Notes under the pieces: generated by a model | The model's database searches: none | What the model was told of the DNA's origin: nothing | What the model saw: the letters and a program-made list of their open reading frames with translations, nothing else | Translations under genes and position numbers: made by a program | Shown here: in pieces, positions 18,225-31,215 of the stretch | How the letters are laid out: every line of letters begins with the position of its first letter | How positions within the stretch are numbered: the stretch's first letter is position 1 | Assembly: GCA_041859045.1 (NCBI GenBank) | Contig: JBHELB010000039.1 | Span: 9,958-73,957, forward strand | DNA from: Candidatus Hydrogenedentales bacterium | GTDB taxonomy: Bacteria; Hydrogenedentota; Hydrogenedentia; Hydrogenedentales; SLHB01 | Direction of reading: 5' to 3' | Length of the DNA: 64,000 bases

Positions 18225-18835
18225 GCGTCGAGGAATCCTGCCCTGCGCCGGAGTTCGGTCATGTCGAACGCGGGGCCGGGGTCGATCTTGCGGCCGGGGG
18301 CGATGTCGCGGTGGCCGACGATCTCCGTGAGCGGGTACGCATCGCGCAACGCCTGGCAAACCGCAGCGCAGGAGTCGAATTGCGCCGCAGGAAACGCTTC
18401 CCACCAGGATTGGGAACCGCTGGGGTGCGTGGTACAGAGGAGTCCGCGTTCGCGAGGCAATTCGACGCCGGTTGACGTAATCAAATTCCCTGAGGATAGC
18501 GGCAGGCACGGCCCGTAGTTGGCGAGTTCGATGCCGATGCTAAAGTGGTTGAGGTCGGTGCGTCCTTTCCACGCGCTGCGCCCGGCGTGAAACGCACGAC
18601 GGTTGAACGGCACAAGCTGCGTGACGGCGCCGTCGCGATCGATGACCAAATGCGCGGACAAATAGTTCTCGTCCTTCGCGCACAGCCACTCGATGCTGCC
18701 TCGGGCCGAGCCGCCGCCGGTGTAGTGAATCACGATGAGGTCCGGCGCGATCTCGCCGCCGTGGTCGGGACTCGGAACAAAACGCACGTCAACTAACCGA
18801 TGCGTTTGCCGATCTACTGCTGAAAGGGTTGTCAT
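18221..18835 (-). CDS. N-acetylmuramoyl-L-alanine amidase (amidase_2, AmpD-like)
   Basis: IVIHYTGG and HAGRSAWKGRTDLNHFSIGIELANYG motifs; start at MTTLSAV. Confidence 0.7.
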   Translation of the reverse strand: MTTLSAVDRQTHRLVDVRFVPSPDHGGEIAPDLIVIHYTGGGSARGSIEWLCAKDENYLSAHLVIDRDGAVTQLVPFNRRAFHAGRSAWKGRTDLNHFSIGIELANYGPCLPLSSGNLITSTGVELPRERGLLCTTHPSGSQSWWEAFPAAQFDSCAAVCQALRDAYPLTEIVGHRDIAPGRKIDPGPAFDMTELRRRAGFLDA

Positions 18836-18910
18836 TTTCTGCTCTCCGCCGCTGCCCATCGTCTCTATACGAGAGACCGGCGCGTTGCAGCGGAGGCGTA
18901 GCGGAAGGCG

Positions 18911-19345
18911 CTACGAGATTGTGCGGGCGATGGTGCCGAGGTAATCGACGAACATGGCGAATTCCATGTTCTGACTAAACGTCTCGGCGAGTTGAAGGGC
19001 GACGAGGCTGCGGCTGTCTTCCAGGCTTCTGACGCGGATGACGCGGGCATCGCCCGTGAAGGATTCGGGGAGGAAGAGGTCCGACGGGCATGGGCCCGTC
19101 GGGAGAATCAGCGAGACAACCATGCCGGGGGTGAGACGATGTTTGGTGAGTGCCCAAATGCCAGTGGTGGAAATGTCCTGGACGATGGCCGGGCCGATGA
19201 GGTGTTGACGCGTGCCGGGGATTTCCACGGAAAGCGTCGCCTTGAGTAAGAAGCGGTGGCGCTTGGCACGGCGTCGCTCATGATTCCGCTCGAAGGGATC
19301 ATCCCATGCGGCATCGACGTCGTATCTACGCAGTGCGGTACTCAT
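18911..19345 (-). CDS. PilZ domain protein
   Basis: RRxxR and D-I-S-T-T-G c-di-GMP binding motifs. Confidence 0.7.
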   Translation of the reverse strand: MSTALRRYDVDAAWDDPFERNHERRRAKRHRFLLKATLSVEIPGTRQHLIGPAIVQDISTTGIWALTKHRLTPGMVVSLILPTGPCPSDLFLPESFTGDARVIRVRSLEDSRSLVALQLAETFSQNMEFAMFVDYLGTIARTIS

Positions 19346-19621
19346 CGTTTATGTGCCTGTGGACGGCACCCCCTGATTGTGAGGTCCCCAGGATCTCATT
19401 CATCCTTGGCATATAATACCAGACTACGCGGTATGTTTCAACAGAAATTTCTGCTTGCTCACTTTTAGTCTAATTATGGTCGTTTGGGTTTTGGTGGATG
19501 GTCCGGTTTCTGGGGGATTGTATTCCTGGATGAGCGGAGCGGCGCGTTGCGGTGACGGGGGAGAGGTGCTAGACTTTTTCGTGGCGGAGTGTCCCTGGAC
19601 TACGAAGGAAGGAGGCCTGGC

Positions 19622-20710
19622 ATGGCGGATCTCGACAAGTACCTGAAAATGATGGTCGATTTTGGGGCGTCGGACCTTCATTTTTGTACTGGGTGTAAAC
19701 CGATTTTCCGGAAGGATGGAAGCCTGACGGCGCTTCGGAACGAGGAAGTGCTGGATAGCGTGACGGCAAAACGAATGATCTATGAGATCACGCCTGCGGC
19801 GAATGAGAAGGAGTTTAATGAGGTCTGGGACTCGGATTTTGCATACGAGTTAGAGGGGGTGGGACGTTTTCGCTGCAACGCGTTCATGGACCACAAGGGG
19901 ATGGGGGCGGTGTTTCGCCTGATTCCGACCGACGTGTTGACGTGCGAGCAGCTCGGCTTGCCCGACGCGGTGAAGAAGTTTTGCACGTTGAACAAGGGGC
20001 TGGTGTTGGTGACGGGGCCGACGGGCAGCGGGAAGTCGACGACGCTGGCAGCGTTGCTGGACCAGATCAACGCGACGCGAAGCGACCACATCATCACGAT
20101 CGAGGATCCGATCGAGTTTGTGCATAAGAACAAGCGGTGTCTGGTGAATCAGCGCGAGGTGCACCGGCACACGAAGAGCTTTCGTGCGGCGCTGCGTGCG
20201 GCGCTACGTGAGGATCCGGACATCGTGCTGGTGGGCGAGATGCGCGACCTGGAGACGACGCATATTGCGATTGAGACGGCGGAAACGGGGCACCTGGTGT
20301 TTGGGACGTTGCACACGACCACGGCGATCTCGACGGTGGACCGCTTGGTGGATCAGTTCCCGCCGGAACAGCAGACCCAGATTCGCGTGATGTTGGCGTC
20401 GTCGTTGAAGGGCGTGGTGGCGCAGAATCTGTTGAAGAAAAAAGGCGGCGGGCGCGTGGGGGCGCTCGAAGTGTTGGTGGTGAATCAGGCAGTATCGGCG
20501 CTGATTCGCGACGGGAAGACGAGCCAGATCATGAGCATCATGCAGACCGCGAAGCGGGAAGGCATGACGCTGTTGAACGAAGAGTTGACGCGCTTCGTGA
20601 AAGAGGACGTGGTGGAGGCGGAAGAGGCATGGCGCAAGGCAGTGGATAAAGAAGATCTGCTGAAGCATTTTGAGTCGGCGGGGATTTCGTTCAAGGCGCC
20701 TGCGGAGTAA
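19622..20710 (+). CDS. pilT: type IV pilus twitching motility ATPase PilT
   Basis: Walker A GPTGSGKST; PilT family-wide conservation; start MADLDKYLKMM. Confidence 0.9.
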   Translation: MADLDKYLKMMVDFGASDLHFCTGCKPIFRKDGSLTALRNEEVLDSVTAKRMIYEITPAANEKEFNEVWDSDFAYELEGVGRFRCNAFMDHKGMGAVFRLIPTDVLTCEQLGLPDAVKKFCTLNKGLVLVTGPTGSGKSTTLAALLDQINATRSDHIITIEDPIEFVHKNKRCLVNQREVHRHTKSFRAALRAALREDPDIVLVGEMRDLETTHIAIETAETGHLVFGTLHTTTAISTVDRLVDQFPPEQQTQIRVMLASSLKGVVAQNLLKKKGGGRVGALEVLVVNQAVSALIRDGKTSQIMSIMQTAKREGMTLLNEELTRFVKEDVVEAEEAWRKAVDKEDLLKHFESAGISFKAPAE

Positions 20711-20763
20711 GGGGGAAGAACACGGACTGACACGGAGAGAGATAGAGAGAGACGAGGGTGATG

Positions 20764-20798
20764 CGCCCGGCACAGATGCCGGGCGCATTTGTTTTTTG
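20764..20798 (+). terminator. rho-independent terminator (9-bp stem gcgcccggc / gccgggcgc followed by T-run)
   Basis: Perfect inverted repeat with 6-nt loop followed by atttgttttttgg, 54 nt after the pilT stop. Confidence 0.8.
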
Positions 20799-20859
20799 GG
20801 TCAGCGCGCTGCAACGCGGTGGGCGGGTTGATGAATGGAGTCAACAGCGAGGTGAGGCG

Positions 20860-22110
20860 ATGGTGAACTGGCTGGGCTGGTGGAAGCGAGGCGCGGGGGC
20901 GCGTGTGGAGCAGAGGTCGCCGGGCGAACGATTTGGGACGGTGTCGTTGACGGAGGACATGAGGGGCTTGATGCGGGCGGGGGAATCCTTTGTTCGGCTT
21001 CCGAGCGAGACGCCGTTCGCGATGCTCGAAGTGTACCGGTTTTTGCGCGATGCGATTCCGGATGTTAGCGACGCGGTGTGGACGTGGAAGCGCTTGTGTC
21101 AGACCGGCTACGACGTGGAGATTTTAGAGGCGTCGTCGGAGATGGCGCGCGCTCGGGCGGAGCGCCTGCTGAAGGCCCTGGACCGGCGGGTGAATAGCGG
21201 GGACCGCGGGATGGACGGTCTGCTGGACGTGTTTTATGCGTCGCTGTTTACGTATGGCGCGGCGGCGTTGGAGATTGTGCTGTCGCCGAGCCGGGAGTCG
21301 ATTGCGGACGTGGTGCCGGTGGACGTTTGGACGGTGCGGTTCAAGCGTGAACGTGGGCAGTTGCAGCCGTATCAGGTGATCGATGGGGAAGAGATTCGGT
21401 TGCCCCGCGAGCGGTTCGTGTATGTGGGGTTGGACCGCGACGGGACAAATCCTTATGGGCGCTCGATGCTTCGCTCAATCCCGTTTGTGGTGAAGATTCA
21501 GCAGCGGCTGATCGAAGACATGGCGAAGGCGACGCACAACGCGGGGTGGGCGAAGCTGCACGTGAAGTATTCGCCGGAGTCGCGCGAGCGCGGGGAGTCG
21601 GTGGAGGCATATGGGCAGCGGATCGCGGGGAACTTTGAGGCGCTGCGCACGCGGCTGAGCGGGTTGGAGGCGGATCAGAATCTGGTGACGTACGACAACG
21701 TGGACGTGTCGTTGATCCGGGGGGATTCGCAGAGCCGGATTTTCTACGACAACCTGAAGGCGATTGAGGAGCAGGTGATCACGGGGATGCACTTGATGCC
21801 GATCCTGATGGGCCGGAATTACGGGACGACGGAAACGTATGGAACGGCGCAGTTCGAGATCGTGAATCGTCAGGTGGAGGCGGTGAACCGCAGCGTGAAG
21901 CGGATTTTGGAGCGCCTCTACAACTTCGAGCTGGCGCTGATGTGGGGCGAGGCGCGGGCGCGCGTGCGGATGCGGACGAATCGGACGGTGGATGTGCTGA
22001 AAGAGGCGACGGCGCGTGGAAAAGAGATTGCGAATGTGTTGGCGCTGCGCGACGCGGGTCTGATGGATGCGGCGGGGACTGCGGAGATGCTGGGAATTGG
22101 CGGGAACTAG
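20860..22110 (+). CDS. phage portal protein-like (HK97-family-like)
   Basis: Start MVNWLGWW after the terminator (RBS gaggtgagg). Motifs resembling portal family consensus: G..L..FYASL..G.AALEI, NPYGRSML, C-terminal IEEQVITGMHLMPILMG. Confidence 0.6.
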   Translation: MVNWLGWWKRGAGARVEQRSPGERFGTVSLTEDMRGLMRAGESFVRLPSETPFAMLEVYRFLRDAIPDVSDAVWTWKRLCQTGYDVEILEASSEMARARAERLLKALDRRVNSGDRGMDGLLDVFYASLFTYGAAALEIVLSPSRESIADVVPVDVWTVRFKRERGQLQPYQVIDGEEIRLPRERFVYVGLDRDGTNPYGRSMLRSIPFVVKIQQRLIEDMAKATHNAGWAKLHVKYSPESRERGESVEAYGQRIAGNFEALRTRLSGLEADQNLVTYDNVDVSLIRGDSQSRIFYDNLKAIEEQVITGMHLMPILMGRNYGTTETYGTAQFEIVNRQVEAVNRSVKRILERLYNFELALMWGEARARVRMRTNRTVDVLKEATARGKEIANVLALRDAGLMDAAGTAEMLGIGGN

Positions 22111-22136
22111 CGAGGAAATGCGGGGAGGACGGCGTG

Positions 22137-22826
22137 ATGGGGTTGGAACCATTTGTATTTCGTCATTGGGGCGCGGTGATGTCGCGCGAGACGCCGGAGA
22201 ACGCGGAGGCGGACGTTGCGGCGGTGAACCAGTTCGCGTTGCGTCCGTTGGCGCGGGAGGAATTCGCGGCGTTTCGACTGGACCTCTGCAATAACCAGGT
22301 GGACCGCCATTTCAGCCGGTTCCCCGAGGAAGAGCTGACGCGAATCACGGAGATGACGCCGGGACGTCCGTTGATGGAGCGGCATGACCTGCGCGGATCG
22401 TTGCCGCGGGGAACGTTTTTTCGGGCGCAGGTGCACCGGGATAGCGAACGCGTGTCGGTGCGGCCGGATGTGTATGTGCTACGCACGCGGGAGAACGAAG
22501 ATTTCATTTTGAACATCGAGGGGGGCGTGTACCGCGAGACGTCGATCGGGTTCTCATTTCAAACGCCGGAGTGCTCGGTGTGCGGGAAGGATTTGCGCAC
22601 CTGTGATCACGTGCCGGGGCGGAGTTACGGGGATGCCTTGTGTCACTACGTGATGCGCGGGGTGCTGGAGGTCATCGAAGGGTCGGTGGTGCCTGCGGGA
22701 TCGCAGGGGACGACGTTTGTGTCGCAGACGCGGGGACTTCCGCTGGCGGAGGCGCTCGACGTGGCGCGGCGGGCGTACCACGCGCCGATCGTGTTGCGGC
22801 CAGGCCGTGCGTGGTCGGAGGAGTAG
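22137..22826 (+). CDS. hypothetical protein of phage-head cluster (Cys/His motif CSVCG...CDH)
   Basis: 229 aa, RBS ggggagg. Sits where a prohead protease or scaffold is expected, but no S78/U35 or ClpP motifs recognised. Confidence 0.5.
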   Translation: MGLEPFVFRHWGAVMSRETPENAEADVAAVNQFALRPLAREEFAAFRLDLCNNQVDRHFSRFPEEELTRITEMTPGRPLMERHDLRGSLPRGTFFRAQVHRDSERVSVRPDVYVLRTRENEDFILNIEGGVYRETSIGFSFQTPECSVCGKDLRTCDHVPGRSYGDALCHYVMRGVLEVIEGSVVPAGSQGTTFVSQTRGLPLAEALDVARRAYHAPIVLRPGRAWSEE

Positions 22827-22828
22827 AG

Positions 22829-23053
22829 GTGAAAACGGCAAGAGGTACTGACGAGCGAGGACCGGAGCGGGAGACTTGCGCGTATCACTTGGCGCACGAG
22901 GCGGAGTTCCGGGCGCTCTCGCGAGGATTGGATGAAGTGAAGGGACGCGTGCACGGCATCGAGACCAAGGTGGAGCGGGGCGTGCTGTTGCTGGTGGCGA
23001 ATCTGGTGGGTGTGGTGATGACGCTGGTGCAGCAGTTGCTGCGTTCGATGTGA
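22829..23053 (+). CDS. small hypothetical protein with C-terminal hydrophobic helix
   Basis: GTG start 3 nt after the previous stop; 74 aa; C-terminal LLLVANLVGVVMTLVQQLL. Confidence 0.4.
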   Translation: MKTARGTDERGPERETCAYHLAHEAEFRALSRGLDEVKGRVHGIETKVERGVLLLVANLVGVVMTLVQQLLRSM

Positions 23054-23062
23054 GGGGAAGAC

Positions 23063-23761
23063 ATGTACGGGAGAGTCTTTATTGAAGAGCGGGCCGGGAA
23101 CCCGGACGCGCTGGGCGAAGAGTGGGACGGGCGGTTCGTCGTGCATCGTCACCGTGATGCGGAGGGGCCGCATGTCGATTTGCGTCTGGAACAGGACGGG
23201 TTTCTGGCGGGCTGGCGGATCGCCGGGGAATTCGAGAGCGGTGCATGGGCGGAAGAGAAGGCGGCGCATCCCGTGCACTGGCTGGACCGCGACGGAGACG
23301 CGGTACGTGAGGACGCTGGGGTGTATCGCTGGATCGAGCGGGGGCCGCTGCGGCGCGTGGTGTGTCTGAAGGGCGAGCACGGCGTGCGCTGGTTGCGTGT
23401 GGAGGCGCATGAGGGGCTTCCGGCGGGCGTGGCGTGCGCGGTGCGGTGCGCGTTGGACGAAGCGGAACTGGGGCCGGAGTCGGCGCTGAGCCTGGTGAAG
23501 GATGGTCTGGTGGCGCGGAAGAGGGCGACGGCGCGGTTGCTGGGGTTGGGGCGCGAGCTGGACGGCGACGCGTTTGATGTGGAGGCCTGGCGGCGTGCGT
23601 TGGCGGGGCTCTCGCTGGAGGAGGTGCAGTCGCACCTGCGCGCGTACGAGGTGCGCTTTGACGCGAAATATCCGCCGCTTCCGGTATCGCGTCCGGAACG
23701 GCTGGACGCGGGAGCGTCAGTGCGGGGGGATGCACTGGCGATCGCGCGTGAGTCGATGTAG
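23063..23761 (+). CDS. LigD-type 3-prime-phosphoesterase (PE) domain-like protein
   Basis: N-terminal FVVHRHRDAEGPHVDLRLEQDGFLAGWRI matches the LigD PE signature FVxQxHxAxxLHYDxRLE..G.L.SWA (both His, Asp and Arg conserved). Confidence 0.5.
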   Translation: MYGRVFIEERAGNPDALGEEWDGRFVVHRHRDAEGPHVDLRLEQDGFLAGWRIAGEFESGAWAEEKAAHPVHWLDRDGDAVREDAGVYRWIERGPLRRVVCLKGEHGVRWLRVEAHEGLPAGVACAVRCALDEAELGPESALSLVKDGLVARKRATARLLGLGRELDGDAFDVEAWRRALAGLSLEEVQSHLRAYEVRFDAKYPPLPVSRPERLDAGASVRGDALAIARESM

Positions 23762-23793
23762 CGGCGAAAGAACGAAGAGAAAGGGAGACGGCT

Positions 23794-24174
23794 ATGGCGT
23801 TTGGAGATTTGGGGGGCGCGGTGACGGAACTGGTGATCACGTGTCAGACGAAGGCAAGCGGTGCGGTGAGCATTGCGCGCGGAGACGCGGTGAAGCTGGC
23901 GGGTCCGTACACGGTGGACAACGCGACGAGCGCGGAAGACGTGGTTTTTGGCGAAGCGTTGGCACCGGCGACGACGAACGGGGCGGCGATCCCTGTGAAG
24001 GTGCGCGGGATTTCGGTTCTTGCGTACACGGGAGATGCGCCGGTGGTGAATGGCGTTGTGGGGGTGTTGGCGTCGGCGACGGCGGGGAAGGTGAAGGCCC
24101 CGGCGACGGGCAACGGCGTGGGCAGGAATGTGAAGGTGGACACGGCGGCGGGGTTGGTGCACGTGTTGCTGTAG
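23794..24174 (+). CDS. small Gly/Ala/Val-rich phage head protein (DUF2190-like, decoration/cement candidate)
   Basis: 126 aa, low-complexity G/A/V-rich, immediately upstream of the capsid-like gene. Confidence 0.4.
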   Translation: MAFGDLGGAVTELVITCQTKASGAVSIARGDAVKLAGPYTVDNATSAEDVVFGEALAPATTNGAAIPVKVRGISVLAYTGDAPVVNGVVGVLASATAGKVKAPATGNGVGRNVKVDTAAGLVHVLL

Positions 24175-24198
24175 ACGGTTTGGGGAGAGGAAACGACG

Positions 24199-25248
24199 AT
24201 GGGGTATCGAGACGATATGGTGAAGGAGCGAGTGGCGTTTTTGTCGCGCGGCGCGGACGGGCTGCGTCAGGTGCGCGGGCGTGAGTTGTTTGAGACGTTG
24301 CATGGGTTGGGGCTGTCGTACGGTCAGTATTTCCGTGCGATGGGAACGAACCTGCAGGACTACTGCGCGCAGGAGTTTGGCGTGGACGTGAGCCGGATCA
24401 CGGTGGACCGGTTCTTTCAGTCGGATCCGAACGCGAAGTGGCTGTTTCCGGACATGGTGCGCGAGGCGGTCATTGCGGGAATGAAGCGCAAGCCGGTGTA
24501 CCGCGATCTGATCATCCGCGACGAGCCGGTAGTGGGTACGGCGTACGACGTGCCGTACGTTCAGGAGTCGGCGGACGACGAGGAGTTGCGCGGCGTTGCG
24601 GAAGGCGCGGCGATTCCGGAGTCGGAAATTCGCTACGGCAGCCGAATTGTACGTCTGGACAAGAAAGGGCGCGGCGTGCTGGCGTCGTACGAGGCGGTGC
24701 GCCGGATGTCGGTGGACATGCTGCGCGTTCACTTGCAGCGCATGGGCGAGCGTCTGGGCCGAAACCTGGACGCGCGTTTGGCGACGGTGTTGGTGTCGGG
24801 CGATTCGTCGGGCGCGAGCACGGCGGCGGTGACGCTGAACACGGCGACGGCGAATACGTGGACGTATGCGGACATTCTGTCGGGATTCATGAAGTTGACG
24901 TTGGACCATTACTTCACGCCGACGCACATGCTGGCGAATGGGGCGCTGACGGAGACGATCCTGAAACTCGACGAGTTCAAGGACTCGGCCCTTTTCGACT
25001 TCGCGAAAACGGGGAACCTGCCGACGCCGGTGGGCGTGAAGTTGGTGCCGATGCCGGAACAGCCGGAGAACAAGCTGACGATCCTGGACGCGGGCTATGC
25101 GGTGGAGAAACTGACGGAGCAAGACCTGTTGGTGGAAAGCGACAAGCTGATCAACCAGCAGTGGGAGCGCACGTACCTGACGGTCGTGACGGACTTCGCG
25201 GTGATCTATGAGAAGGCGCGCGTGGTGGTGCAGAGCGATTGGTCGTAG
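24199..25248 (+). CDS. putative phage major capsid protein
   Basis: 349 aa, position after portal and small decoration-like gene, balanced composition. No specific family motif recognised by eye. Confidence 0.45.
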   Translation: MGYRDDMVKERVAFLSRGADGLRQVRGRELFETLHGLGLSYGQYFRAMGTNLQDYCAQEFGVDVSRITVDRFFQSDPNAKWLFPDMVREAVIAGMKRKPVYRDLIIRDEPVVGTAYDVPYVQESADDEELRGVAEGAAIPESEIRYGSRIVRLDKKGRGVLASYEAVRRMSVDMLRVHLQRMGERLGRNLDARLATVLVSGDSSGASTAAVTLNTATANTWTYADILSGFMKLTLDHYFTPTHMLANGALTETILKLDEFKDSALFDFAKTGNLPTPVGVKLVPMPEQPENKLTILDAGYAVEKLTEQDLLVESDKLINQQWERTYLTVVTDFAVIYEKARVVVQSDWS

Positions 25249-25311
25249 CGGAGGGGGCGGCGAAGGGCGCGGGCGCGAAAGCGTTCGCGCCCTTTTGCAT
25301 GGAGATGAGAC

Positions 25312-25725
25312 ATGGCGAGCGTGGCGACGGAAGAAGGGGTGCGGGCTCGGTTTCAATGGAGCGAGGAAGACGTTCCCGAATCGCTGATCACGTTGGCGAT
25401 AGAGGATGCGCATAACCGGTTGGTGCGGGCGTTGACGGCGGAATCGTGGGGTGAAACGCCCGCGTCGGGCGTGGTGTTGGGCGAGACGTTGCTGGCGGGG
25501 GCGCAGGTGTACCGCTTGCTGGCGGCGCGCGAGGCGTTTGATCGGCGGGACGTGCGCGTAGGCGGTCAGGAGAGCGTCGGGATCGGGCGCTTCGAGGCGC
25601 TGAGCCGCACGGCGACGGCGCTGGAGGACGAGGCGTGGGCGGTGCTAGAGGCCTTTACGCGTATGCATGAGGGACGGGCTCCGATGAGTGCGTCGGACAC
25701 GGTTCCGGTGCTAGGAGAGGGATAA
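25312..25725 (+). CDS. putative head-tail connector (gp6-like) protein
   Basis: 137 aa; pattern VRARFQWSEEDVPESLITLAIEDAHNRLVRALT resembles gp6-like connector consensus. Confidence 0.35.
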   Translation: MASVATEEGVRARFQWSEEDVPESLITLAIEDAHNRLVRALTAESWGETPASGVVLGETLLAGAQVYRLLAAREAFDRRDVRVGGQESVGIGRFEALSRTATALEDEAWAVLEAFTRMHEGRAPMSASDTVPVLGEG

Positions 25726-25728
25726 GCC

Positions 25729-26412
25729 GTGGCGATCACGCTGGGAACGCTGTCGTTGGACGAACGATACGTGGCGGTGAAAGAGCGATTCGAAGAGGTC
25801 GGCGGACGCGACGAACGGCGCGTCGAGTTGACGGGACTTGTTTCCGATGTGTCGACGGTTGCGGGAATTGAGGCGCGACTGGAGGAGATTCTTCGGGAAG
25901 CGTCGACAAACCGCAGTTGGACCACATTTTCCGTGCGCGCGGGACGACGGCTATGGGTGCGGCGGTTGTCCTACGAACGCGAAGTGCAGCGCGGACGGAA
26001 GACGGGGGTATTCAAGCTGGTGTTGGAGGTGCGCGATTTCTTTGAGGAGTCGGACACGGAGACCGTGGTGACGTGGGAGGCTTTTTCGGGAAGCACGCGG
26101 GAATTTGCGAGTAGTGGGACTGGGGCGACGCCGATTTCCGCGGTGATTGTTCCGGAAGTGGACGTGACGTCGTGGGCGCTTAGCGACGGGACGAACACAC
26201 TGTCGGCGCAAGGCGTGTTCGCTGCGGGTGTGGCGATACGCGTGGATGGCGTGGCGCGGAAGGTGTGGGTTGGCGAGCGCGAGATCACGGGATATGTGGA
26301 AGGCACGTTTCCTGAGGTGCGCCCGGAAGGGACGACGTTGACGTATACCGACAGTGATGAAGGCGCGCATGCGGCGGCGATCACGGTTTCGTATCGCGAT
26401 CGGTGGTGGTAG
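25729..26412 (+). CDS. hypothetical protein (phage-like cluster)
   Basis: 227 aa, 3-nt gap from previous gene. Confidence 0.5.
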   Translation: MAITLGTLSLDERYVAVKERFEEVGGRDERRVELTGLVSDVSTVAGIEARLEEILREASTNRSWTTFSVRAGRRLWVRRLSYEREVQRGRKTGVFKLVLEVRDFFEESDTETVVTWEAFSGSTREFASSGTGATPISAVIVPEVDVTSWALSDGTNTLSAQGVFAAGVAIRVDGVARKVWVGEREITGYVEGTFPEVRPEGTTLTYTDSDEGAHAAAITVSYRDRWW

Positions 26413-26415
26413 TTC

Positions 26416-28155
26416 ATGCAATACCAAATCGAAGTGCTGGAGCAGGGCGGCTTTCGCAAGGCGGTATATGACGATGTGCTGTTGCTTGAGGCGGAGCGCG
26501 GGCAGGTGGACCGGGGCGTGCGCGTGGAGGGGTTGTTGCCGCCGGGACTGGCGGAATTGGGGCCGGGAGACCGGATCCGTGTGTTGGTGGACGGCGCGTT
26601 GTTTTGCGAGGCCCCCGTGCGCCGGGTGACGCCGCAATGGGGCGATCTCAAGACGCTGATTCTCGATAAATACGTGAACGCGCACGAGCTGGTGTACGTC
26701 GAGGCGTCAACTTCGGGGCCGGAGTGGAACAATCGGGTGCAGGTGGCGCTGTTGGCGTGTCCGGTGAAGACGGCGGTGCAGCAGGTGATTGACAGGGCGT
26801 TGGGTGCGGTTCACTACGGCGTGGCGCATACGGCATTTCCAGACGGCGCACAACGCGAGTATGCGAAGTTTGAAGCGCGGAAGACTGCAGGAAACGAACT
26901 GGAGACGGGCGGCATTTCAGCGGGCCAGTGGGTGGGCGCGCCACGGTTGGACGCGAGCGAGGCGTATGCCAAGGATGGCGACACGATCGCGGGGTTGAAG
27001 GTGGACGGCGCGGCGTGGCCGGACCTGCGGCTGCTCATGATTGACGCCGAGGAGACGTCGAAGAATGGTCACGCGGTGTCGCGTCACCCCGAGGTCACGG
27101 CGATGACGGCGGAAGAGTATGCGGCGTCGGCGTATGCGTGGCGCGCGCAACGATCGAAGGAGTCGCTGCAGGCGTTGATCGACGGGCACGGAATTGATGC
27201 GGTGGAACTGAACCCACATCGGAACGCGGCGGGCGCATTCGACGATCGCGTGGATGCGTATGGGCGCTACGTGGGGCTGATCTACGGCGGCGGACTTTGT
27301 TTCAACGCGGCAATGGTCGAGCAGGGAATGGCGGAAATCTATTTGTATGAAGAGGGCCGCTATCACGAGCCGTCGATGGCGTTGAAGGATTACTACTCGT
27401 ACGTGGGGCCGTCGGAAGACACGCTGGCGGTCGTGGGCGGGGGCCCGGTGAGCATGGCGGTGGACGCAGGGCTGATGGAGGCGTTGATGGCGCTGGCGTT
27501 GATGGGGGGCGGGTGCCGTTGGGGGGTGAGGGCGGACGGGACCGTGTGGTTTTGCGAAGCGAGTACGGCCGAGCACGTGGCGTTCGAGTCGCCGTCGGAG
27601 ACGGGCGTGAGCTGGGGGATGTCCGATATAGGTCTCGTGAACGAGTTGACATTCGAAGGAGGTGAGTTGGCGTTGCCGCTAACGAAGACCTATGCGCGAG
27701 AGGCCAGTGTCAGGCGCTACGGAAGCGCGTCGGGACGACTGGTGCATTACGGTCTTAACGCGGAGCAGGACGTAGACCGCTTGGCGGCGGCGTTACTCGA
27801 TGATTTGGCGTATCCATCGTTAACGGGCGACGTCGTGTTTCATCGGGGAAAGGGAGACGTGCATCCCGGCGAATTGATCGAAATCCGTGGAGCGCCGTTT
27901 CGGCGATATCACGAGGCATTGTCTGGGGAATGGGGCGGGCGCTACGCAGGGCGACTGGTGGGGGCGGTGGCGTCGGTGACGCACCGATTCACGGGGCGTC
28001 GCGTGCGGACGACCGCGACGCTGACGAGTCCGGGGCGCGCGGTTGAGAATCCCCTGCGGTTTATTGTGCGCAGTCAACCGAGCGAAGCGGAGATGTATGC
28101 GTTTCGATTGGACGACGAGGTGGTTGGATTGGACATGAGCTATCACCTGGACTGA
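26416..28155 (+). CDS. large hypothetical protein with embedded SNase/thermonuclease-like domain
   Basis: Residues about 190-360 (AKDGDTIAGLKVDG..RLLMIDAEETSKNGH...DAYGRYVGLIYGGGLCFNAAMVEQGMAEIY) align motif-for-motif with staphylococcal nuclease (DGDT, RLLxxDxPE, DKYGRxLAY..N..LV.G.A). Confidence 0.6.
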   Translation: MQYQIEVLEQGGFRKAVYDDVLLLEAERGQVDRGVRVEGLLPPGLAELGPGDRIRVLVDGALFCEAPVRRVTPQWGDLKTLILDKYVNAHELVYVEASTSGPEWNNRVQVALLACPVKTAVQQVIDRALGAVHYGVAHTAFPDGAQREYAKFEARKTAGNELETGGISAGQWVGAPRLDASEAYAKDGDTIAGLKVDGAAWPDLRLLMIDAEETSKNGHAVSRHPEVTAMTAEEYAASAYAWRAQRSKESLQALIDGHGIDAVELNPHRNAAGAFDDRVDAYGRYVGLIYGGGLCFNAAMVEQGMAEIYLYEEGRYHEPSMALKDYYSYVGPSEDTLAVVGGGPVSMAVDAGLMEALMALALMGGGCRWGVRADGTVWFCEASTAEHVAFESPSETGVSWGMSDIGLVNELTFEGGELALPLTKTYAREASVRRYGSASGRLVHYGLNAEQDVDRLAAALLDDLAYPSLTGDVVFHRGKGDVHPGELIEIRGAPFRRYHEALSGEWGGRYAGRLVGAVASVTHRFTGRRVRTTATLTSPGRAVENPLRFIVRSQPSEAEMYAFRLDDEVVGLDMSYHLD

Positions 28156-28170
28156 CGAGAAGGAGGGGGA

Positions 28171-28686
28171 ATGCGAGGCAAGGGGTATACGAAGACGGCC
28201 TGGCAGGTGCAGGAACGGCCCGTGTCGTCGTCGAAGCTGAACACGTGGGACGATCGTATCGAGCAGGCATTGGAGCGGGCGTTCTTTTACGTGGGGCAGA
28301 CGGCGGGTGATGAGAACGGCGTGTTGCGCGGCGCGACATCATTGGATTTGAAGACGACTCAGGCGTCGCCGGCGGGACGGAGTGTGGTGGTGAATGCGGG
28401 GTGCGCGTTGATTGCGCGATGTCCGTATCGCTTGGGGTCGAGTATGGCCACGGCGGAGGTAACGCCGCCCGCGACGTATCCGCGCGTGGATTTGGTGCAG
28501 GCGCGGCTGGACTCGTGGGATGTGAGCGTTCGTACGGGGACCGAAGCGGCGTCGCCGATGGCTCCAGAGGCGGAGGCGAACTGCATTGCGTTGGCGGAAC
28601 TGCATCTGCGGCCAGGAATGGTGAGCGTCAAGGATACGGACGACGGCGTGAATGGGTACATTGTGGATGTGCGGGCGTTCTTGTAG
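28171..28686 (+). CDS. hypothetical protein (phage-like cluster)
   Basis: 171 aa ORF, co-directional. Confidence 0.45.
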   Translation: MRGKGYTKTAWQVQERPVSSSKLNTWDDRIEQALERAFFYVGQTAGDENGVLRGATSLDLKTTQASPAGRSVVVNAGCALIARCPYRLGSSMATAEVTPPATYPRVDLVQARLDSWDVSVRTGTEAASPMAPEAEANCIALAELHLRPGMVSVKDTDDGVNGYIVDVRAFL

Positions 28687-28702
28687 AAGAGGAGAAGAAG
28701 CG

Positions 28703-29074
28703 ATGGATGGTAGCGTGAGTGAATGGGGCCTGACGTTGGCGACGATGGTGTTTGGGGCGCTGTGGACGGCGTTTCGATCGAGCGACGTGTTGGGGCGCGT
28801 GCGCGATGAACGGTTCCGAAAAGCGTTGAGCGCGTTGGAGGCGGGCGTGGAGCAGACGTACCGGACGTATGTGCGGGCGCTGAAGGAGTCGCGCGCGGAC
28901 GGGAAACTGACGGACGAGGAGCGACGCCAGGCGCGGTTGCTGGCGCGGGACACCGCGATGGCGTTTGGCCGTACGCAGGGCGTCGACGTGTTGCAGACGC
29001 TTGGGCGTGAGTACATCGACGTGTGGATCGCAAAATTGGTGAATGGCCTGAAGATCGGCGCGGGTTTGGCGTAG
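28703..29074 (+). CDS. small hypothetical protein with N-terminal TM helix (last gene of cluster)
   Basis: Start MDGSVSEWGLTLATMVFGALWTAF with RBS agaggagaag. Confidence 0.4.
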   Translation: MDGSVSEWGLTLATMVFGALWTAFRSSDVLGRVRDERFRKALSALEAGVEQTYRTYVRALKESRADGKLTDEERRQARLLARDTAMAFGRTQGVDVLQTLGREYIDVWIAKLVNGLKIGAGLA

Positions 29075-29081
29075 GGAATTC

Positions 29082-29128
29082 GGGGGGGATTCTTGCCGGA
29101 GGAGAATCTCCCCCAATCCTTTTCAAAG
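29082..29128 (+). terminator. hairpin (gggggggattct / agaatctccccc) with weak T tract
   Basis: Near-perfect inverted repeat 8 nt after the last cluster gene stop, followed by aatccttttc. Confidence 0.4.
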
Positions 29129-29252
29129 AGCGCACTTTCTCGTAAATGCACCCACCTTTCCTCTCGCGAAGAGTCCCACCTGCGAGTCAATACCCTTCAG
29201 ACAAGTTCACTTCTTTGCCGCTCAGAGCAGGCGTTTTCTGTCGATCGCCGGG

Positions 29253-29281
29253 TTGACAGTGCGGCCGATTTCGCCGATAAT
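29253..29281 (+). promoter_or_regulatory. sigma70-like promoter TTGACA-17-GATAAT
   Basis: Consensus -35 hexamer with exact 17-nt spacer to GATAAT; about 180-nt leader before the OMP gene. Confidence 0.55.
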
Positions 29282-29463
29282 GCGGCCGGGGGTGGGTCTT
29301 TGTTTTCGACCCAGACAGCAGTATTCGTCACTTACCCGGGCAAAAGTGCGCGGGTGAGGTGTGTCTGTGGCGCAAAACGAAGCTCATTCCGGATGGAGTT
29401 TTCATGTTATCGGGGATAGGGGACCGGTCTCTGACAAGGGGCCAAACGCGAAGGAGAAGGCAG

Positions 29464-31041
29464 ATGCGCAAGGGGCTTTTGGTGCTGGCTGTTGCGGCGA
29501 TGATGTTCTGCACGGCCGCCTCCGCCGAGCTGCAGAATGTGCAGGTTGGCGGCGAGGTTCGCATTATGGGGAACTGGATTCCGAACTGGGCGGTCGAGCC
29601 GGGGCCGTTGGAGATTCGGATTCCGGCGACGCAGTTGTTCAACCGTCCGATCGGCGACATGGTGACGCGTGGGGCGTTCAACGGCGCGGGCATCTTGAGC
29701 CCGTATGCGTGGGGCAACACGAACGACCTGCGTCTGATCGAAGAGCGCACGCGCGTGAACTTCAAGGCGGAGTTCACGGACAACGTGAGCGCGTTCATCG
29801 AGCTCGAGAGCTATGATTTTTGGGGCGAGGATTTCCGTTCGAACTACGTGACCGGCGCGGATGCGCGCGCGGCGACGGGTGATGACGTGGAAGTGTATCA
29901 GTCGTACATCGAGACGAGCGAAATGTACGGCTATCCGGTGTCGCTGCGCATTGGCCGCCAGGAATTGGCGTTCGGTAATCAGTGGCTGGTCGGGCCGAAG
30001 GACTTCGGCCCGTTCTTCCGCGGCCGTTCGTTCGATGCGATTCGCGCGACGTACGCGACGGACCTGTTCAAGGTCGACGCGTGGATGTCGAAGCTGAACG
30101 AAGGCGGCGTGGCGGAGCAGGACGGCGACGTCGATTTCTACGGCGTGTACGGCACGTACCTGGGCCTTGAGAACATCACGATCGACGCGTACTGGATGCT
30201 GGTCCGCGATGGCCGCAGCCTGAACGACACCAATCGTCTCTGGTTCGGCGAGTGGATCGAAGACGTGTTGAACCTGGATGACTACGACGTGACGAATCTC
30301 AACACGGTGGGTCTGCGCGGCGCGGGCAAAATCGACGCGTTCGATTTCGATGCGGAAGTGGCCTATCAGTTCGGCAGCGCGGATCAGGTTGGTTTCGCGT
30401 TCAAGCCGTTCACGTACGGCGACGACGGCGCGGACTACGGCGTGTGGGGCGCGAACCTGGGCGCGGGCTACACCTTCGACATGATGTGGCAGCCGCGCCT
30501 TCACCTGGGCTACACCTACTACGGCGGCGAAGACAACCGCGACATCAATTTCTGGCAGTGGCTGAATCCGTTCGACCTGCCGGAGGCGAGCGTCAGCTTC
30601 AACCGTCTGTTCACGAACGTGATGCACGGCGGTTTCCTCGATCTGCAGGGCGACTTTTCGAACGGCCACGTGTTCGAGGCCGACGTGATGGCGCACCCGA
30701 CCGAGAAGACGATGGTCATGCTGGGGCTGACCTATTTCATGGCCGACGAGACGTTCTCGTACCCGATGTTCGTGAAGATCGGCAAGTTCCGCGTGCCGGT
30801 GGCCCCGAACCTGTCCTTCTGGGATAAGGGCGGCGACAGCGACATCGGTTGGCAGCTCGACCTGGTCGGCGCGTACAACTACAGCGAAGACCTGTCGTTC
30901 ATGCTTCACTGGAGCCACATGTTTGTGGGCGACGGCCTGAGCGACGGCAACTTCAACGCCTGGAACGGCCTACTGTTCACCGGCGGCGACGGCGAAGACG
31001 ACTCCGACTACTACTGTGTCGAGACGCGTATTCGCTTCTAG
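29464..31041 (+). CDS. outer-membrane beta-barrel protein (porin-like)
   Basis: Signal peptide MRKGLLVLAVAAMMFCTAASA; alternating aromatic/Gly-rich beta-strand pattern; terminal Phe (TRIRF); RBS aaggagaagg. Confidence 0.65.
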   Translation: MRKGLLVLAVAAMMFCTAASAELQNVQVGGEVRIMGNWIPNWAVEPGPLEIRIPATQLFNRPIGDMVTRGAFNGAGILSPYAWGNTNDLRLIEERTRVNFKAEFTDNVSAFIELESYDFWGEDFRSNYVTGADARAATGDDVEVYQSYIETSEMYGYPVSLRIGRQELAFGNQWLVGPKDFGPFFRGRSFDAIRATYATDLFKVDAWMSKLNEGGVAEQDGDVDFYGVYGTYLGLENITIDAYWMLVRDGRSLNDTNRLWFGEWIEDVLNLDDYDVTNLNTVGLRGAGKIDAFDFDAEVAYQFGSADQVGFAFKPFTYGDDGADYGVWGANLGAGYTFDMMWQPRLHLGYTYYGGEDNRDINFWQWLNPFDLPEASVSFNRLFTNVMHGGFLDLQGDFSNGHVFEADVMAHPTEKTMVMLGLTYFMADETFSYPMFVKIGKFRVPVAPNLSFWDKGGDSDIGWQLDLVGAYNYSEDLSFMLHWSHMFVGDGLSDGNFNAWNGLLFTGGDGEDDSDYYCVETRIRF

Positions 31042-31107: not shown

Positions 31108-31215
31108 CTACCGCAGGATGCGGACAACGGCGACGGCGATGATCAGCGGCACGATCATAATCAGCACGCGCCAGTGTTCGGTGACGTAGAGAAAGATGTC
31201 GCGCCAGGTGATCAT
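31108..31215 (-). CDS. 35-aa hydrophobic micro-protein, translationally coupled (ATGA overlap)
   Basis: MITWRDIFLYVTEHWRVLIMIVPLIIAVAVVRILR. Its ATG overlaps the TGA of the upstream zinc-ribbon gene. Below the ORF-track threshold; coordinates +/-1. Confidence 0.3.
   Translation of the reverse strand: MITWRDIFLYVTEHWRVLIMIVPLIIAVAVVRILR

What the first reader, a model, noticed from the sequence alone, without database searches (positions are those of the whole stretch)
20860..29074. Head-only phage-like operon with no terminase, tail or integrase
Eleven co-directional, tightly packed genes begin right after the pilT terminator. They include a portal-like protein, a DUF2190-like decoration candidate, a capsid-sized 349-aa protein and a gp6-like connector candidate. 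No small or large terminase precedes the portal; the upstream neighbour is pilT. No tape measure, tube, sheath or baseplate genes follow, and no integrase, repressor or att-like repeat is visible; a porin gene comes next. GC content and codon style match the host. This is not a standard prophage. Candidates are a domesticated capsid element, a capsid-forming satellite that depends on a helper phage terminase and tail, or a novel packaging system.
Basis: partly seen in the sequence, partly recalled or inferred. Interest (0 to 1): 0.8.

Follow-up and report, generated by a model that had tools for sequence, protein, structure and literature searches.

The report
Domesticated phage capsid-and-baseplate operon
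Eleven virus-derived genes that encode a phage head plus a short tail tip are inherited like ordinary chromosomal genes in about 70 species of the little-known phylum Hydrogenedentota, so the bacteria have probably kept an ancient virus remnant for their own use, although no DNA-packaging enzyme lies beside it.

Summary
The block is real: 11 tightly packed + strand genes (20860-29074) between the pilT terminator and a porin gene. It is not head-only. It encodes a portal, an HK97-type prohead protease, an HK97-fold capsid protein and a conserved head accessory protein. It also encodes a siphovirus-type baseplate: Dit, a gp27/Mu-gp44-like hub with an inserted, apparently active staphylococcal-nuclease domain, and a receptor-binding-protein "shoulder" protein. 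One head gene fuses a LigD-type 3'-phosphoesterase to the capsid-binding C-terminal domain of phage protease/scaffold proteins.

The same block, in the same order, occurs once in each of 72 species-level genomes, nearly all labelled Hydrogenedentota. Protein lengths are near-invariant and dN/dS is 0.02-0.33. Block GC tracks host GC, divergence tracks the neighbouring host genes, and a shared promoter-like motif is present.

No terminase, integrase, tube, tape measure or att site lies in the 64-kb window or within 10 kb in any of the 72 genomes. The closest real viruses are only 22-34% identical.

Best reading: an ancient, vertically inherited, domesticated phage particle operon, like a gene transfer agent (GTA) but with an unusual architecture. 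What it carries is unknown. Whether a terminase exists elsewhere could not be tested.

The parts
20760..20789 (+). Intrinsic terminator of pilT; upstream boundary of the block
   Evidence: 13-bp GC-rich stem followed by a T run
20809..20824 (+). Conserved promoter/operator-like motif (CTGCAACGCGGTGGGC; family consensus GTGCAACRCCGTGGGC), 36 nt upstream of the portal ATG
   Evidence: TGCAAC occurs within 120 nt upstream of the portal gene in 23 of 49 loci, against 2.5% of background windows. Exact copies sit upstream of the second sub-operon where the block is split (L002, L068, L215). In the window there are 2 matches with up to 2 mismatches, against 0.24 expected.
20860..22110 (+). g1, portal protein (416 aa)
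   Evidence: Pfam Portal_Mu 38 bits (cutoff 23.9); phrog_3753 portal E 9e-48. 22-30% identical to phage portals. 53-80% identical across the fetched loci.
22137..22826 (+). g2, prohead maturation protease, HK97/S78-like protease domain only (229 aa), with a Cys/His insert
   Evidence: hhalign against the phage fHoEfm07 head maturation protease gives prob 91%, E 9e-7. Against the IMG/VR viral protease-scaffold protein it gives prob 95%, E 5e-8. His83 and Ser136 (TSIGF) are invariant. phrog_16951 E 7e-36.
22829..23053 (+). g3, 74-aa protein with a coiled-coil-like segment and a conserved C-terminal hydrophobic helix; function unassigned (membrane anchor or lysis helper is a guess)
   Evidence: Hydropathy and family consensus. 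No family hit. No match to viral scaffold proteins. Conserved in 46 loci.
23063..23761 (+). g4, LigD-type 3'-phosphoesterase (PE) domain (about residues 20-105) fused to a C-terminal domain (about 135-216) homologous to the C-terminal capsid-binding/scaffold part of viral prohead protease-scaffold proteins
   Evidence: The family profile hits PE structures 3p43 and 3p4h at E 4e-7 and 1e-6. H30, H37, D39, R41 and H69 are invariant. C-terminal domain: tblastn hits at the syntenic position in 16 viral contigs; profile-profile prob 83%, E 8.6e-6. All named members of the 350-protein family carry Hydrogenedentes-type labels.
23794..24174 (+). g5, conserved small head protein (126 aa), probably a decoration or accessory capsid protein
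   Evidence: phrog_4588 virion structural protein E 9e-7. Homologous to the ~130-aa ORF directly upstream of the capsid gene in related viral contigs (hhalign prob 97%, E 1.5e-10).
24199..25248 (+). g6, HK97-fold major capsid protein (349 aa)
   Evidence: Pfam Phage_capsid_4 57 bits; phrog_3922 E 2e-51. The profile hits HK97 gp5 (1ohg, 2gp1, 3qpr) at E 4e-5. 56-87% identical in 72 genomes. dN/dS 0.02-0.11 in the closely related pairs; 0.16 against the nearest relative of the window, L001.
25271..25292 (+). GC-rich hairpin plus T run after the capsid gene (possible attenuator)
   Evidence: 9-bp stem, 7 GC pairs; its function is inferred
25312..25725 (+). g7, 137-aa protein; head-tail adaptor by position only
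   Evidence: No Pfam, PHROG, PDB or hhalign match. Conserved in 57 loci and always sits between the capsid gene and Dit.
25729..26412 (+). g8, distal tail protein (Dit)
   Evidence: Pfam SPP1_Dit 25.8 bits (cutoff 25); phrog_33 Dit. The family profile hits SPP1 gp19.1 (2x8k) at E 1.7e-5.
26416..28155 (+). g9, baseplate hub / tail-associated protein (gp27 / Mu gp44 fold) with an inserted staphylococcal-nuclease domain (about residues 183-320)
28171..28686 (+). g10, 171-aa baseplate peripheral protein with the 'shoulder' fold of siphophage receptor-binding proteins / TssK / SPP1 gp22
28703..29074 (+). g11, 123-aa protein with an N-terminal hydrophobic segment; function unassigned (holin-like role is a guess)
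   Evidence: Start codon taken from the independent gene call. No family hit in 19 members. Conserved in 36 loci. Still present next to the capsid gene in lineages that lack g7-g10.
29082..29114 (+). Intrinsic terminator; downstream boundary of the block
   Evidence: 13-bp stem plus T-rich tail

Best explanation
The block is an ancient phage morphogenesis operon that the Hydrogenedentota lineage has domesticated. It is vertically inherited, host-regulated and kept under strong purifying selection, as gene transfer agents (GTAs) are.

Shown by the analyses:
- It encodes a portal, a prohead protease, an HK97-fold capsid protein and a conserved small head protein.
- It encodes a siphovirus-type baseplate: Dit, a hub and a receptor-binding-protein shoulder protein.
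- The hub carries an SNase domain with an intact catalytic set.
- A LigD-type 3'-phosphoesterase with an intact catalytic set is fused to the C-terminal domain that related phages have at the end of their protease/scaffold protein.
- The genes between head and baseplate (stopper, terminator, tube, chaperones, tape measure) and the terminase genes upstream of the portal are cleanly missing in every genome examined.

Inferred:
- Under a dedicated promoter, a producer cell assembles procapsids on the portal.
- The scaffold-derived domain of g4 carries the phosphoesterase into the shell.
- g2 matures the shell and g5 decorates it.
- g7 joins the portal directly to a Dit-hub-g10 stub, giving a short-tailed particle whose tip displays a nuclease.
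- The small membrane proteins g3 and g11, plus a conserved 164-aa protein in many genomes, help release.

Most likely payload (inferred, about 40-45%): host DNA packaged by a terminase encoded elsewhere. That would make this a new, independently evolved GTA, with the phosphoesterase co-delivered to heal DNA 3' ends.
For: Identity of the parts.

Unit conservation. Same gene order and strand, one locus in each of 72 different assemblies. Protein lengths are near-invariant: g9 576-582 aa, g10 170-172, g5 124-127.

Purifying selection on all 11 genes. dN/dS is 0.02-0.33 in close pairs with dS 0.14-0.6.

Long residence and vertical descent. Block GC tracks flank GC over hosts of 52-67.5% GC (r 0.86, 35 genomes). 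Pairwise identities of block proteins correlate with those of syntenic flanking host orthologues (r 0.90-0.997), and the capsid protein is more conserved than those host proteins. The window's ribonucleotide reductase is 80% identical to that in L012, where the capsid protein is also 80%.

No mobility or lysogeny genes, att repeats or tRNA.

No close free virus. IMG/VR holds only two short fragments of the same element, then nothing above 34% identity. No hub+SNase relative was found in IMG/VR.

Shared cis element. A TGCAAC-type motif lies upstream of the portal gene and is duplicated upstream of the second half where the operon is split.

The element tolerates being split (L002, L067, L068, L215) and lacks g7-g10 at the locus in L063 and L064. 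Parts can therefore act in trans, which makes an unlinked terminase plausible.
Against: No large or small terminase was found in the block, in the 64-kb window, or within 10 kb of the block in 72 genomes. DNA packaging is therefore unsupported by any gene seen here.

No stopper, terminator, tube or tape measure was found. Whether a Dit-hub complex can dock on a head through g7 alone is untested.

g3, g7 and g11 have no assignable fold or family.

There is no expression, proteomic or microscopy evidence.

Distribution was measured by a pattern-seeded scan of species representatives. How many Hydrogenedentota lack the block is unknown, and a full species-tree comparison was not possible.

The scaffold-domain homology of g4 rests on moderate statistics (prob 83%, E 8.6e-6).
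Confidence: 0.6

Rival explanations
1. A DNA-free, phage-derived delivery or enzyme particle. The terminase was truly lost. The capsid is loaded with protein cargo (the g4 phosphoesterase, through its scaffold-derived domain). The baseplate with its nuclease-bearing hub attaches the particle to cells or to extracellular DNA. On this reading it is a bacteriocin-like, DNA-scavenging or nanocompartment function rather than gene transfer.
For: Terminase is absent in cis in all 72 genomes. The loss of terminase and of the tube/tape-measure segment looks like two clean deletions retained across all loci examined. The enzyme fused to a capsid-targeting domain resembles cargo loading. The SNase catalytic residues are conserved on the outward-facing hub insertion. 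L063 and L064 keep only the head genes plus g11.
Against: The portal, presumed adaptor and RBP-like protein are all under purifying selection, which fits a DNA-ejecting machine. No precedent is known to me for portal-bearing capsids kept without DNA. Both enzyme domains act on nucleic-acid ends, which fits a DNA payload equally well. The operon can be split, so missing genes may simply lie elsewhere.
Confidence: 0.2
2. A capsid-forming phage satellite (cf-PICI-like) that makes its own heads and borrows terminase and tail from a helper phage.
For: It has its own portal, protease and capsid without terminase or long-tail genes, which resembles capsid-forming satellites.
Against: There is no integrase, replication, repressor or small-terminase gene, no att repeats and no tRNA site. 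There is one copy per genome in 72 species, with host-tracking GC and co-divergence with flanking host genes. It encodes its own baseplate, so it would not accept a helper tail. A helper would have to co-exist wherever the block occurs, and no related virus above 34% identity is in IMG/VR.
Confidence: 0.05
3. A decaying cryptic prophage remnant with no function.
For: The gene set is truncated relative to related phages: no terminase, tube, tape measure or lysogeny module.
Against: All 11 genes are intact with near-invariant lengths in dozens of species that have diverged to 56-87% capsid-protein identity. dN/dS is 0.02-0.33. The promoter motif is conserved. A neutral remnant would not survive this divergence.
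Confidence: 0.02
4. An ordinary complete prophage whose remaining modules lie just outside the inspected region.
For: None beyond the phage origin of the genes.
Against: Host housekeeping genes abut both ends. pilT and its terminator end 70 nt upstream, and the porin, an ABC transporter, ThyX and a ribonucleotide reductase lie downstream. The rest of the 64-kb window is host metabolism and signalling genes. The 10-kb flanks in 72 genomes hold different host genes and no phage genes.
Confidence: 0.01

Closest known systems
Gene transfer agents of the RcGTA type (Rhodobacter capsulatus and other Alphaproteobacteria)
   Different: From memory of the literature: RcGTA encodes its terminase at the head of the cluster and has stopper, terminator, tube and tape-measure genes. 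None of these is in the block here or within 10 kb of it. No sequence-level relationship was found: the head genes are nearest to a different, Mu/HK97-like phage lineage. The SNase-bearing hub and the phosphoesterase-scaffold fusion have no GTA counterpart that I know of.
Head modules of the siphophage/myophage lineage that includes Enterococcus phage fHoEfm07, Bacillus phage vB_BcM_CUBc25 and about 47 IMG/VR contigs
   Same: Homologous portal, protease, small pre-capsid protein and capsid protein, in the same order.
   Different: Identity is only 22-34%. Where the neighbourhood was inspected, a terminase or terminase-sized gene lies directly upstream of the portal: annotated TerL in CUBc25, TerS plus an unannotated 491-aa ORF in fHoEfm07, and a 532-aa unscanned ORF in L093. 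Their protease is fused to a C-terminal scaffold domain. The annotated phages have a full tail with tape measure. In the element the protease is truncated and its former C-terminal domain is attached to a phosphoesterase.
Capsid-forming phage-inducible chromosomal islands (cf-PICIs) and similar satellites
   Same: They encode their own capsid, portal and protease while lacking a large terminase and a long tail.
   Different: From memory: satellites are mobile (integrase, att, replication, helper-sensing regulators) and patchily distributed. This block has none of those genes, is single-copy and co-diverges with the host. It also carries its own baseplate.
Encapsulin nanocompartments
   Same: A domesticated HK97-fold shell. 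An enzyme joined to a shell-binding peptide or domain resembles cargo targeting.
   Different: From memory: encapsulins have no portal, protease, adaptor or baseplate. This block has a portal, a protease and a baseplate, plus a putative adaptor.
Other head-bearing defective-phage particles (Brachyspira VSH-1, Bacillus PBSX, Desulfovibrio Dd1)
   Same: Host-controlled phage-like particles that package host DNA. For some of them packaging genes were not recognised in the cluster (from memory, not checked here).
   Different: They are taxonomically unrelated, and no homology was tested or seen. Those particles have complete tails.

Membership tests
Gene transfer agent (GTA) | Phage-like structural gene cluster fixed in the host chromosome, vertically inherited and under purifying selection | tested here: met
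   72 genomes with one locus each and conserved order. dN/dS 0.02-0.33. GC tracks the host, r 0.86. Co-divergence with syntenic host genes, r 0.90-0.997.
Gene transfer agent (GTA) | No phage replication, integration or lysogeny functions | tested here: met
   None in the window or in 10-kb flanks of 72 loci. No att repeats and no adjacent tRNA.
Gene transfer agent (GTA) | Encodes a terminase that packages host DNA | tested here: not met
   No TerL or TerS in the block, the window or the 10-kb flanks.
Gene transfer agent (GTA) | Particles carry random host DNA fragments and transfer them to recipients | not testable with these tools
   Needs particle purification, sequencing of DNase-protected DNA and a transfer assay.
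Gene transfer agent (GTA) | Production under host regulatory control | tested here: inconclusive
   A conserved TGCAAC-type motif lies upstream of the portal gene and of split sub-operons. The regulator is unknown.
Capsid-forming satellite (cf-PICI-like) | Integrase and attachment sites; mobile, patchy distribution | tested here: not met
Capsid-forming satellite (cf-PICI-like) | Own capsid, portal and protease but no tail genes; uses helper tails | tested here: not met
   Capsid, portal and protease are present, but Dit, hub and RBP-shoulder genes are also present.
Complete or recently inactivated siphovirus prophage | Terminase, head-tail connectors, tube, tape measure, lysis and lysogeny modules contiguous | tested here: not met
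   Only the head genes, one possible adaptor and the baseplate are present. Host genes abut both ends.
Encapsulin | HK97-fold shell without portal or tail; cargo with a targeting peptide | tested here: not met
   Portal, protease and baseplate are present. A cargo-like fusion does exist.
Tailocin / contractile injection system | Tube (and sheath) without a capsid | tested here: not met
   No tube or sheath gene; capsid and portal are present.
HK97-fold capsid proteins | Sequence or structure match to the HK97 gp5 fold | tested here: met
   The profile hits 1ohg, 2gp1 and 3qpr at E 4e-5 to 1.5e-4 over residues 99-330. Pfam Phage_capsid_4 is above cutoff.
LigD 3'-phosphoesterase (PE) domain | Fold-family match plus the metal-binding and catalytic His/His/Asp/Arg/His set | tested here: met
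   The profile hits 3p43 and 3p4h at E 4e-7 and 1e-6. H30, H37, D39, R41 and H69 are invariant in 19 sequences. The single-sequence Pfam score is below cutoff (15.6 against 31.1). Activity was not tested.
Staphylococcal nuclease (SNase) domain | OB-fold match plus the Ca-binding and catalytic Asp/Asp/Glu/Arg/Arg set | tested here: met

The most novel reading that the evidence does not exclude
Hydrogenedentota maintain a previously undescribed class of domesticated viral machine. It would be a portal-bearing capsid filled through a scaffold fusion with a DNA 3'-end-healing enzyme. It would be joined, with no tail tube, directly to a baseplate whose hub displays an active nuclease, and it would work without any terminase. 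That would make it neither a GTA, nor a tailocin, nor an encapsulin. It could be, for example, a particle that cuts, captures or processes DNA, or that delivers enzymes to neighbouring cells.
Probability: 0.2. Interest if true: 0.92.

Novelty: new variant of a known kind. Interest (0 to 1): 0.75.

Why it matters
To my knowledge, only a handful of independent phage-to-host domestications that keep a capsid are known. All of those with assigned genes are in well-studied lineages. This would add one in a candidate phylum that, as far as I know, has no pure culture and is common in sediments, groundwater and digesters.

The architecture has not been reported in the searched literature. It combines a head with a baseplate stub, has no terminase in cis, places a nuclease in the hub and fuses a DNA-end-healing enzyme to a capsid-targeting domain.

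It gives a concrete, testable case for three questions:
- How far can a tailed-phage virion be pared down and still be useful to a cell?
- How are enzymes loaded into phage-derived shells?
- Does gene-transfer-agent-like exchange operate in uncultured phyla?

There is also a practical consequence. Public annotation calls these genes 'hypothetical' or 'thermonuclease family protein'. Fragments of the block are listed as viruses in IMG/VR. The block is therefore a recurrent false positive for prophage and virus calling.

Tried and rejected
1. Terminase hunt. These searches found nothing: Pfam/PHROG on the 11 block proteins and 38 of the other window ORFs, covering every ORF of 230 aa or more; tblastn with TerL/TerS of the two related phages against the window and about 1 Mb of Hydrogenedentota flanks; inspection of the ORF upstream of the portal in the most divergent loci, which is a membrane/TPR protein; and ORFs inserted inside the block, which are ankyrin/Kelch, NHL, an IS transposase, DUF6414 and a CBM protein.

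2. Using the operator motif to find unlinked operons. Only 2 came from the element and the rest looked like chance matches. This was not informative.

3. Sequence-profile searches against the PDB gave no credible hit for g2, g5, g7, g10 or the 164-aa accessory protein. g2 and g5 were resolved by profile comparison with viral homologues, and g10 by structure.

4. My holin (LL-H-like) guess for g11 and XhlA-like guess for g3 were not supported by Pfam scans. They are left unassigned.

5. g7 against the annotated adaptor of phage fHoEfm07 gave no similarity.

6. g3 as a leftover of the ancestral scaffold gave no similarity.

7. A sigma-54 reading of the upstream motif was rejected by eye: the reverse strand has CC where the invariant GG of the -24 element should be.

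8. The GC skew of about +0.3 over the block is not a conserved property. It ranges from -0.19 to +0.38 in other genomes.

9. No Rfam family matches in or around the block.

10. A search for hub+SNase relatives in IMG/VR found none.

Full report
OBSERVATION. Window positions 20860-29074 hold eleven + strand genes separated by 3-63 nt. An independent gene caller on identical public contigs gives the same eleven products: 416, 229, 74, 232, 126, 349, 137, 227, 579, 171 and 123 aa. This fixes g3 at 22829-23053 and g11 at 28703-29074. A strong terminator hairpin (20760-20789) closes pilT 70 nt before g1, and another (29082-29114) follows g11. A third hairpin with a T run sits right after the capsid gene (25271-25292). 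The flanks are host genes. Upstream lie Amidase_2, PilZ and pilT. Downstream lie an Alginate_exp porin, an ABC transporter, ThyX and a class II ribonucleotide reductase. The rest of the 64-kb window is metabolism, motility and signalling. No att-like repeat brackets the block, and the only tRNA is 14 kb away.

WHAT THE GENES ARE: HEAD.
- g1 is a portal (Pfam Portal_Mu above cutoff; PHROG portal E 9e-48).
- g6 is the major capsid protein (Phage_capsid_4 57 bits; PHROG E 2e-51). A profile of 21 family members hits HK97 gp5 structures at E 4e-5.
- g2 had only an 'unknown function' PHROG. Its profile aligns with the protease domain of the head maturation protease of Enterococcus phage fHoEfm07 (prob 91%) and of an IMG/VR viral protease-scaffold protein (prob 95%). 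The His (ERHD) and Ser (TSIGF) residues are invariant, and both share a Cys/His insert.
- g5 is homologous to the ~130-aa gene that precedes the capsid gene in related viral contigs (prob 97%).
- g4 is the unusual one. Its N-terminal half is a LigD-type 3'-phosphoesterase domain. The profile hits the solved stand-alone PE domains 3p43 and 3p4h at E 4e-7 and 1e-6, and the His/His/Asp/Arg/His set is invariant.
- The C-terminal ~80 residues of g4 are homologous to the C-terminal domain of the viral protease-scaffold fusion proteins. Support comes from tblastn hits at the syntenic position in 16 viral contigs and a profile-profile comparison at prob 83%, E 8.6e-6.
- In those viruses one 390-600-aa protein carries protease plus this C-terminal domain. 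Here the protease gene (229 aa) has lost it, and the domain is attached to the phosphoesterase. From established knowledge of lambda C/Nu3, P2 gpO and the HK97 protease, such C-terminal regions bind the inside of the procapsid. I therefore infer that g4 is carried into the shell. This step is inference.

WHAT THE GENES ARE: TAIL TIP.
- g8 is a Dit (Pfam SPP1_Dit at cutoff; PHROG Dit; family profile hits SPP1 gp19.1 at E 1.7e-5).
- g7, between capsid and Dit, matches nothing. It is an adaptor by position only.
- g3 (conserved C-terminal hydrophobic helix) and g11 (N-terminal hydrophobic segment) are unassigned.
- So the block is head plus baseplate. Relative to related phages it lacks the terminase genes upstream of the portal. 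It also lacks the whole stopper-terminator-tube-chaperone-tape-measure segment between head and Dit.

DISTRIBUTION AND EVOLUTION.
- The capsid protein retrieved 72 loci from 72 different species-representative assemblies. Nearly all are labelled Candidatus Hydrogenedentota, at 56-87% identity over the full length.
- Gene order and strand are the same wherever the contig allows. Protein lengths are almost invariant.
- Flanking genes differ between genomes. No flanking family occurs in more than 7 loci, and none is phage-like.
- Where sub-clades share flanking host orthologues, block-protein identities co-vary with them (r 0.90-0.997). The capsid protein is more conserved than those host proteins.
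- Block GC follows host GC from 52 to 67.5% (r 0.86).
- In close pairs with unsaturated dS, dN/dS is 0.02-0.11 for the capsid protein, 0.04-0.09 for the portal, and at most 0.33 for every gene.
- In IMG/VR only two short fragments belong to this clade. The next viral relatives are 22-34% identical. No hub+SNase relative was found there.
- Wherever a source names the g4, g9 and g10 homologues, the name is 'hypothetical' or 'thermonuclease family protein', almost always from Hydrogenedentes-labelled metagenome-assembled genomes (MAGs).
- This is the signature of one old domestication followed by vertical descent. It is not the signature of a prophage, a satellite or a remnant.

VARIATION THAT INFORMS MECHANISM.
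- Sixteen loci carry a ~550-aa Gly-rich protein with an N-terminal hydrophobic segment between g2 and g3. One locus has a CBM-containing protein at that position. This looks like a variable adhesin or fibre slot.
- Twenty-one loci carry a conserved 164-aa protein between g10 and g11. It has an S-x-H...D...H-x-H pattern, but no family or structure match.
- The two most divergent lineages (L063, L064) have only g1-g6, that accessory gene or g11, and no g7-g10 at the locus.
- L002 and L067 lack g1-g4 at the locus. L068 and L215 have a 4-kb insertion of unrelated genes between g4 and g5. L034 has an IS transposase between the capsid gene and g7.
- The modules can therefore be separated in the genome, which makes unlinked partners such as a terminase conceivable.

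REGULATION.
- A TGCAAC-containing motif (fullest form GTGCAACRCCGTGGGC, often followed by a TATA-like element) lies 45-95 nt upstream of the portal gene in 23 of 49 loci, against 2.5% of background windows.
- In the window it is at 20809-20824.
- In split operons an exact copy reappears upstream of the second half (L002, L068, L215), and a close variant appears in L067.
- This argues for a dedicated, shared control element. The factor that reads it is unknown.

HOW IT MOST LIKELY WORKS.
Shown: the parts list, its conservation and its selection.
Inferred:
- Under a specific signal the operon is transcribed, and the hairpin after the capsid gene lowers downstream expression.
- Procapsids assemble on the portal with g4 inside.
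- g2 matures them and g5 decorates them.
- g7 bridges the portal to a Dit hexamer and hub trimer carrying g10, plus lineage-specific fibres. This gives a short-tailed particle with a nuclease at its tip.
- Release involves g3, g11 and the accessory protein.

PAYLOAD. Two nucleic-acid-end enzymes are built into the particle. From established enzymology, SNase leaves 3'-phosphate ends and the LigD PE domain removes 3'-phosphates. Their presence points to DNA as the business of the particle. My leading reading is GTA-like transfer of host DNA packaged by a terminase encoded elsewhere (about 40-45%). The main rival is a terminase-free enzyme or cargo particle (about 20%). A satellite, a remnant or a truncated view of a prophage are each unlikely (5% or less).

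LIMITS. No expression or particle data exist. g3, g7 and g11 remain unassigned. 'Phylum-wide' means 72 species found by a pattern-seeded scan; the number of Hydrogenedentota lacking the block is unknown.

COMPARISON AND NOVELTY. Functionally the block behaves like a GTA locus, but it fails the defining terminase test in cis and has a different architecture and ancestry. It is not a cf-PICI (no mobility genes, own baseplate). It is not an encapsulin (portal, protease and baseplate present). It is not a tailocin (capsid present, no tube). No paper in the searchable library links Hydrogenedentota with GTAs or capsids, or describes an SNase-bearing hub of this kind. I rate it a new variant of a known kind (a domesticated phage particle). 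There is a real chance (about 0.2) that it is something categorically different.

Noticed in passing
window 20809-20824; L002 9460-9475; L068 9525-9540 and about 2355; L215 (two sites): A conserved GTGCAACRCCGTGGGC-type motif, often followed by a TATA-like element, lies upstream of the portal gene. It is duplicated upstream of the second half wherever the operon is split. This suggests a dedicated regulator or sigma factor, which was not identified.
   Followed up: partly
window 24108-24123: The only other window match to that motif with up to 2 mismatches lies inside g5, 76 nt upstream of the capsid gene, on the same strand. It could be an internal promoter. It could also be a by-product of the conserved G-N-G-V-G codons.
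   Followed up: no
window 19000-29500: GC skew is about +0.27 to +0.31 over pilT and the block, against about 0.05-0.15 in the flanks. The skew of the homologous block in other genomes ranges from -0.19 to +0.38, so it is not a property of the element. The cause in this genome is unexplained.
   Followed up: partly
e.g. L041 6484-8136, L009 848-2716, L053 2124-3680 (between g2 and g3): A variable slot in 16 loci holds a ~550-aa Gly-rich protein with an N-terminal hydrophobic segment. In L053 it holds a protein with a weak carbohydrate-binding-module match. There is no family hit. It may be a head fibre or adhesin. It is absent from the window.
   Followed up: partly
e.g. L012 14483-14977 (between g10 and g11 in 21 loci; next to the capsid gene in L063): A conserved 164-aa protein has invariant S106, H108, D118, H154 and H156, a pattern reminiscent of LAS/M15 zinc peptidases. 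It has no Pfam, PHROG or PDB match. It is absent from the window.
   Followed up: partly
L034 11136-12227; L068 5554-9414; L215: An IS (DDE transposase) is inserted between the capsid gene and g7 in one genome. A 4-kb insertion with ankyrin/Kelch and NHL-repeat genes lies between g4 and g5 in others, and the promoter motif is regenerated downstream of it.
   Followed up: yes
L006, L014, L015, L022, L024 and others (labelled Nitrospiraceae/Nitrospirales), L029 (Planctomycetota), L035 (Bathyarchaeia), L071 (Rhodothermaeota): Genomes with non-Hydrogenedentota labels carry the same block at the same identity range. This most likely reflects mislabelled or mis-binned MAGs rather than transfer between phyla.
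   Followed up: no
L075, L076 (IMG/VR UViG 3300025589_000772, 3300036961_000458): Fragments of this chromosomal block are catalogued as viral genomes in IMG/VR. The block is thus a recurrent false positive for virus and prophage callers.
   Followed up: partly
window 18221-18859 (- strand): An Amidase_2 gene with endolysin-type PHROG matches (E 2.5e-25) lies 2 kb upstream of the block on the opposite strand. It is not linked to the block in other genomes. It could be a host AmpD-like enzyme or a recruited lysin.
   Followed up: no
window 1898-3433 (-), 6811-7602 (+), 31212-31964 (-), 47539-48354 (-): Four sizeable ORFs (511, 263, 250 and 271 aa) have no Pfam or PHROG match at all.
   Followed up: no
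window 24199-24495 (g6 residues 1-98): The match to mature HK97 gp5 starts at about residue 99. The capsid protein may therefore have an N-terminal delta-like domain that the g2 protease removes.
   Followed up: no
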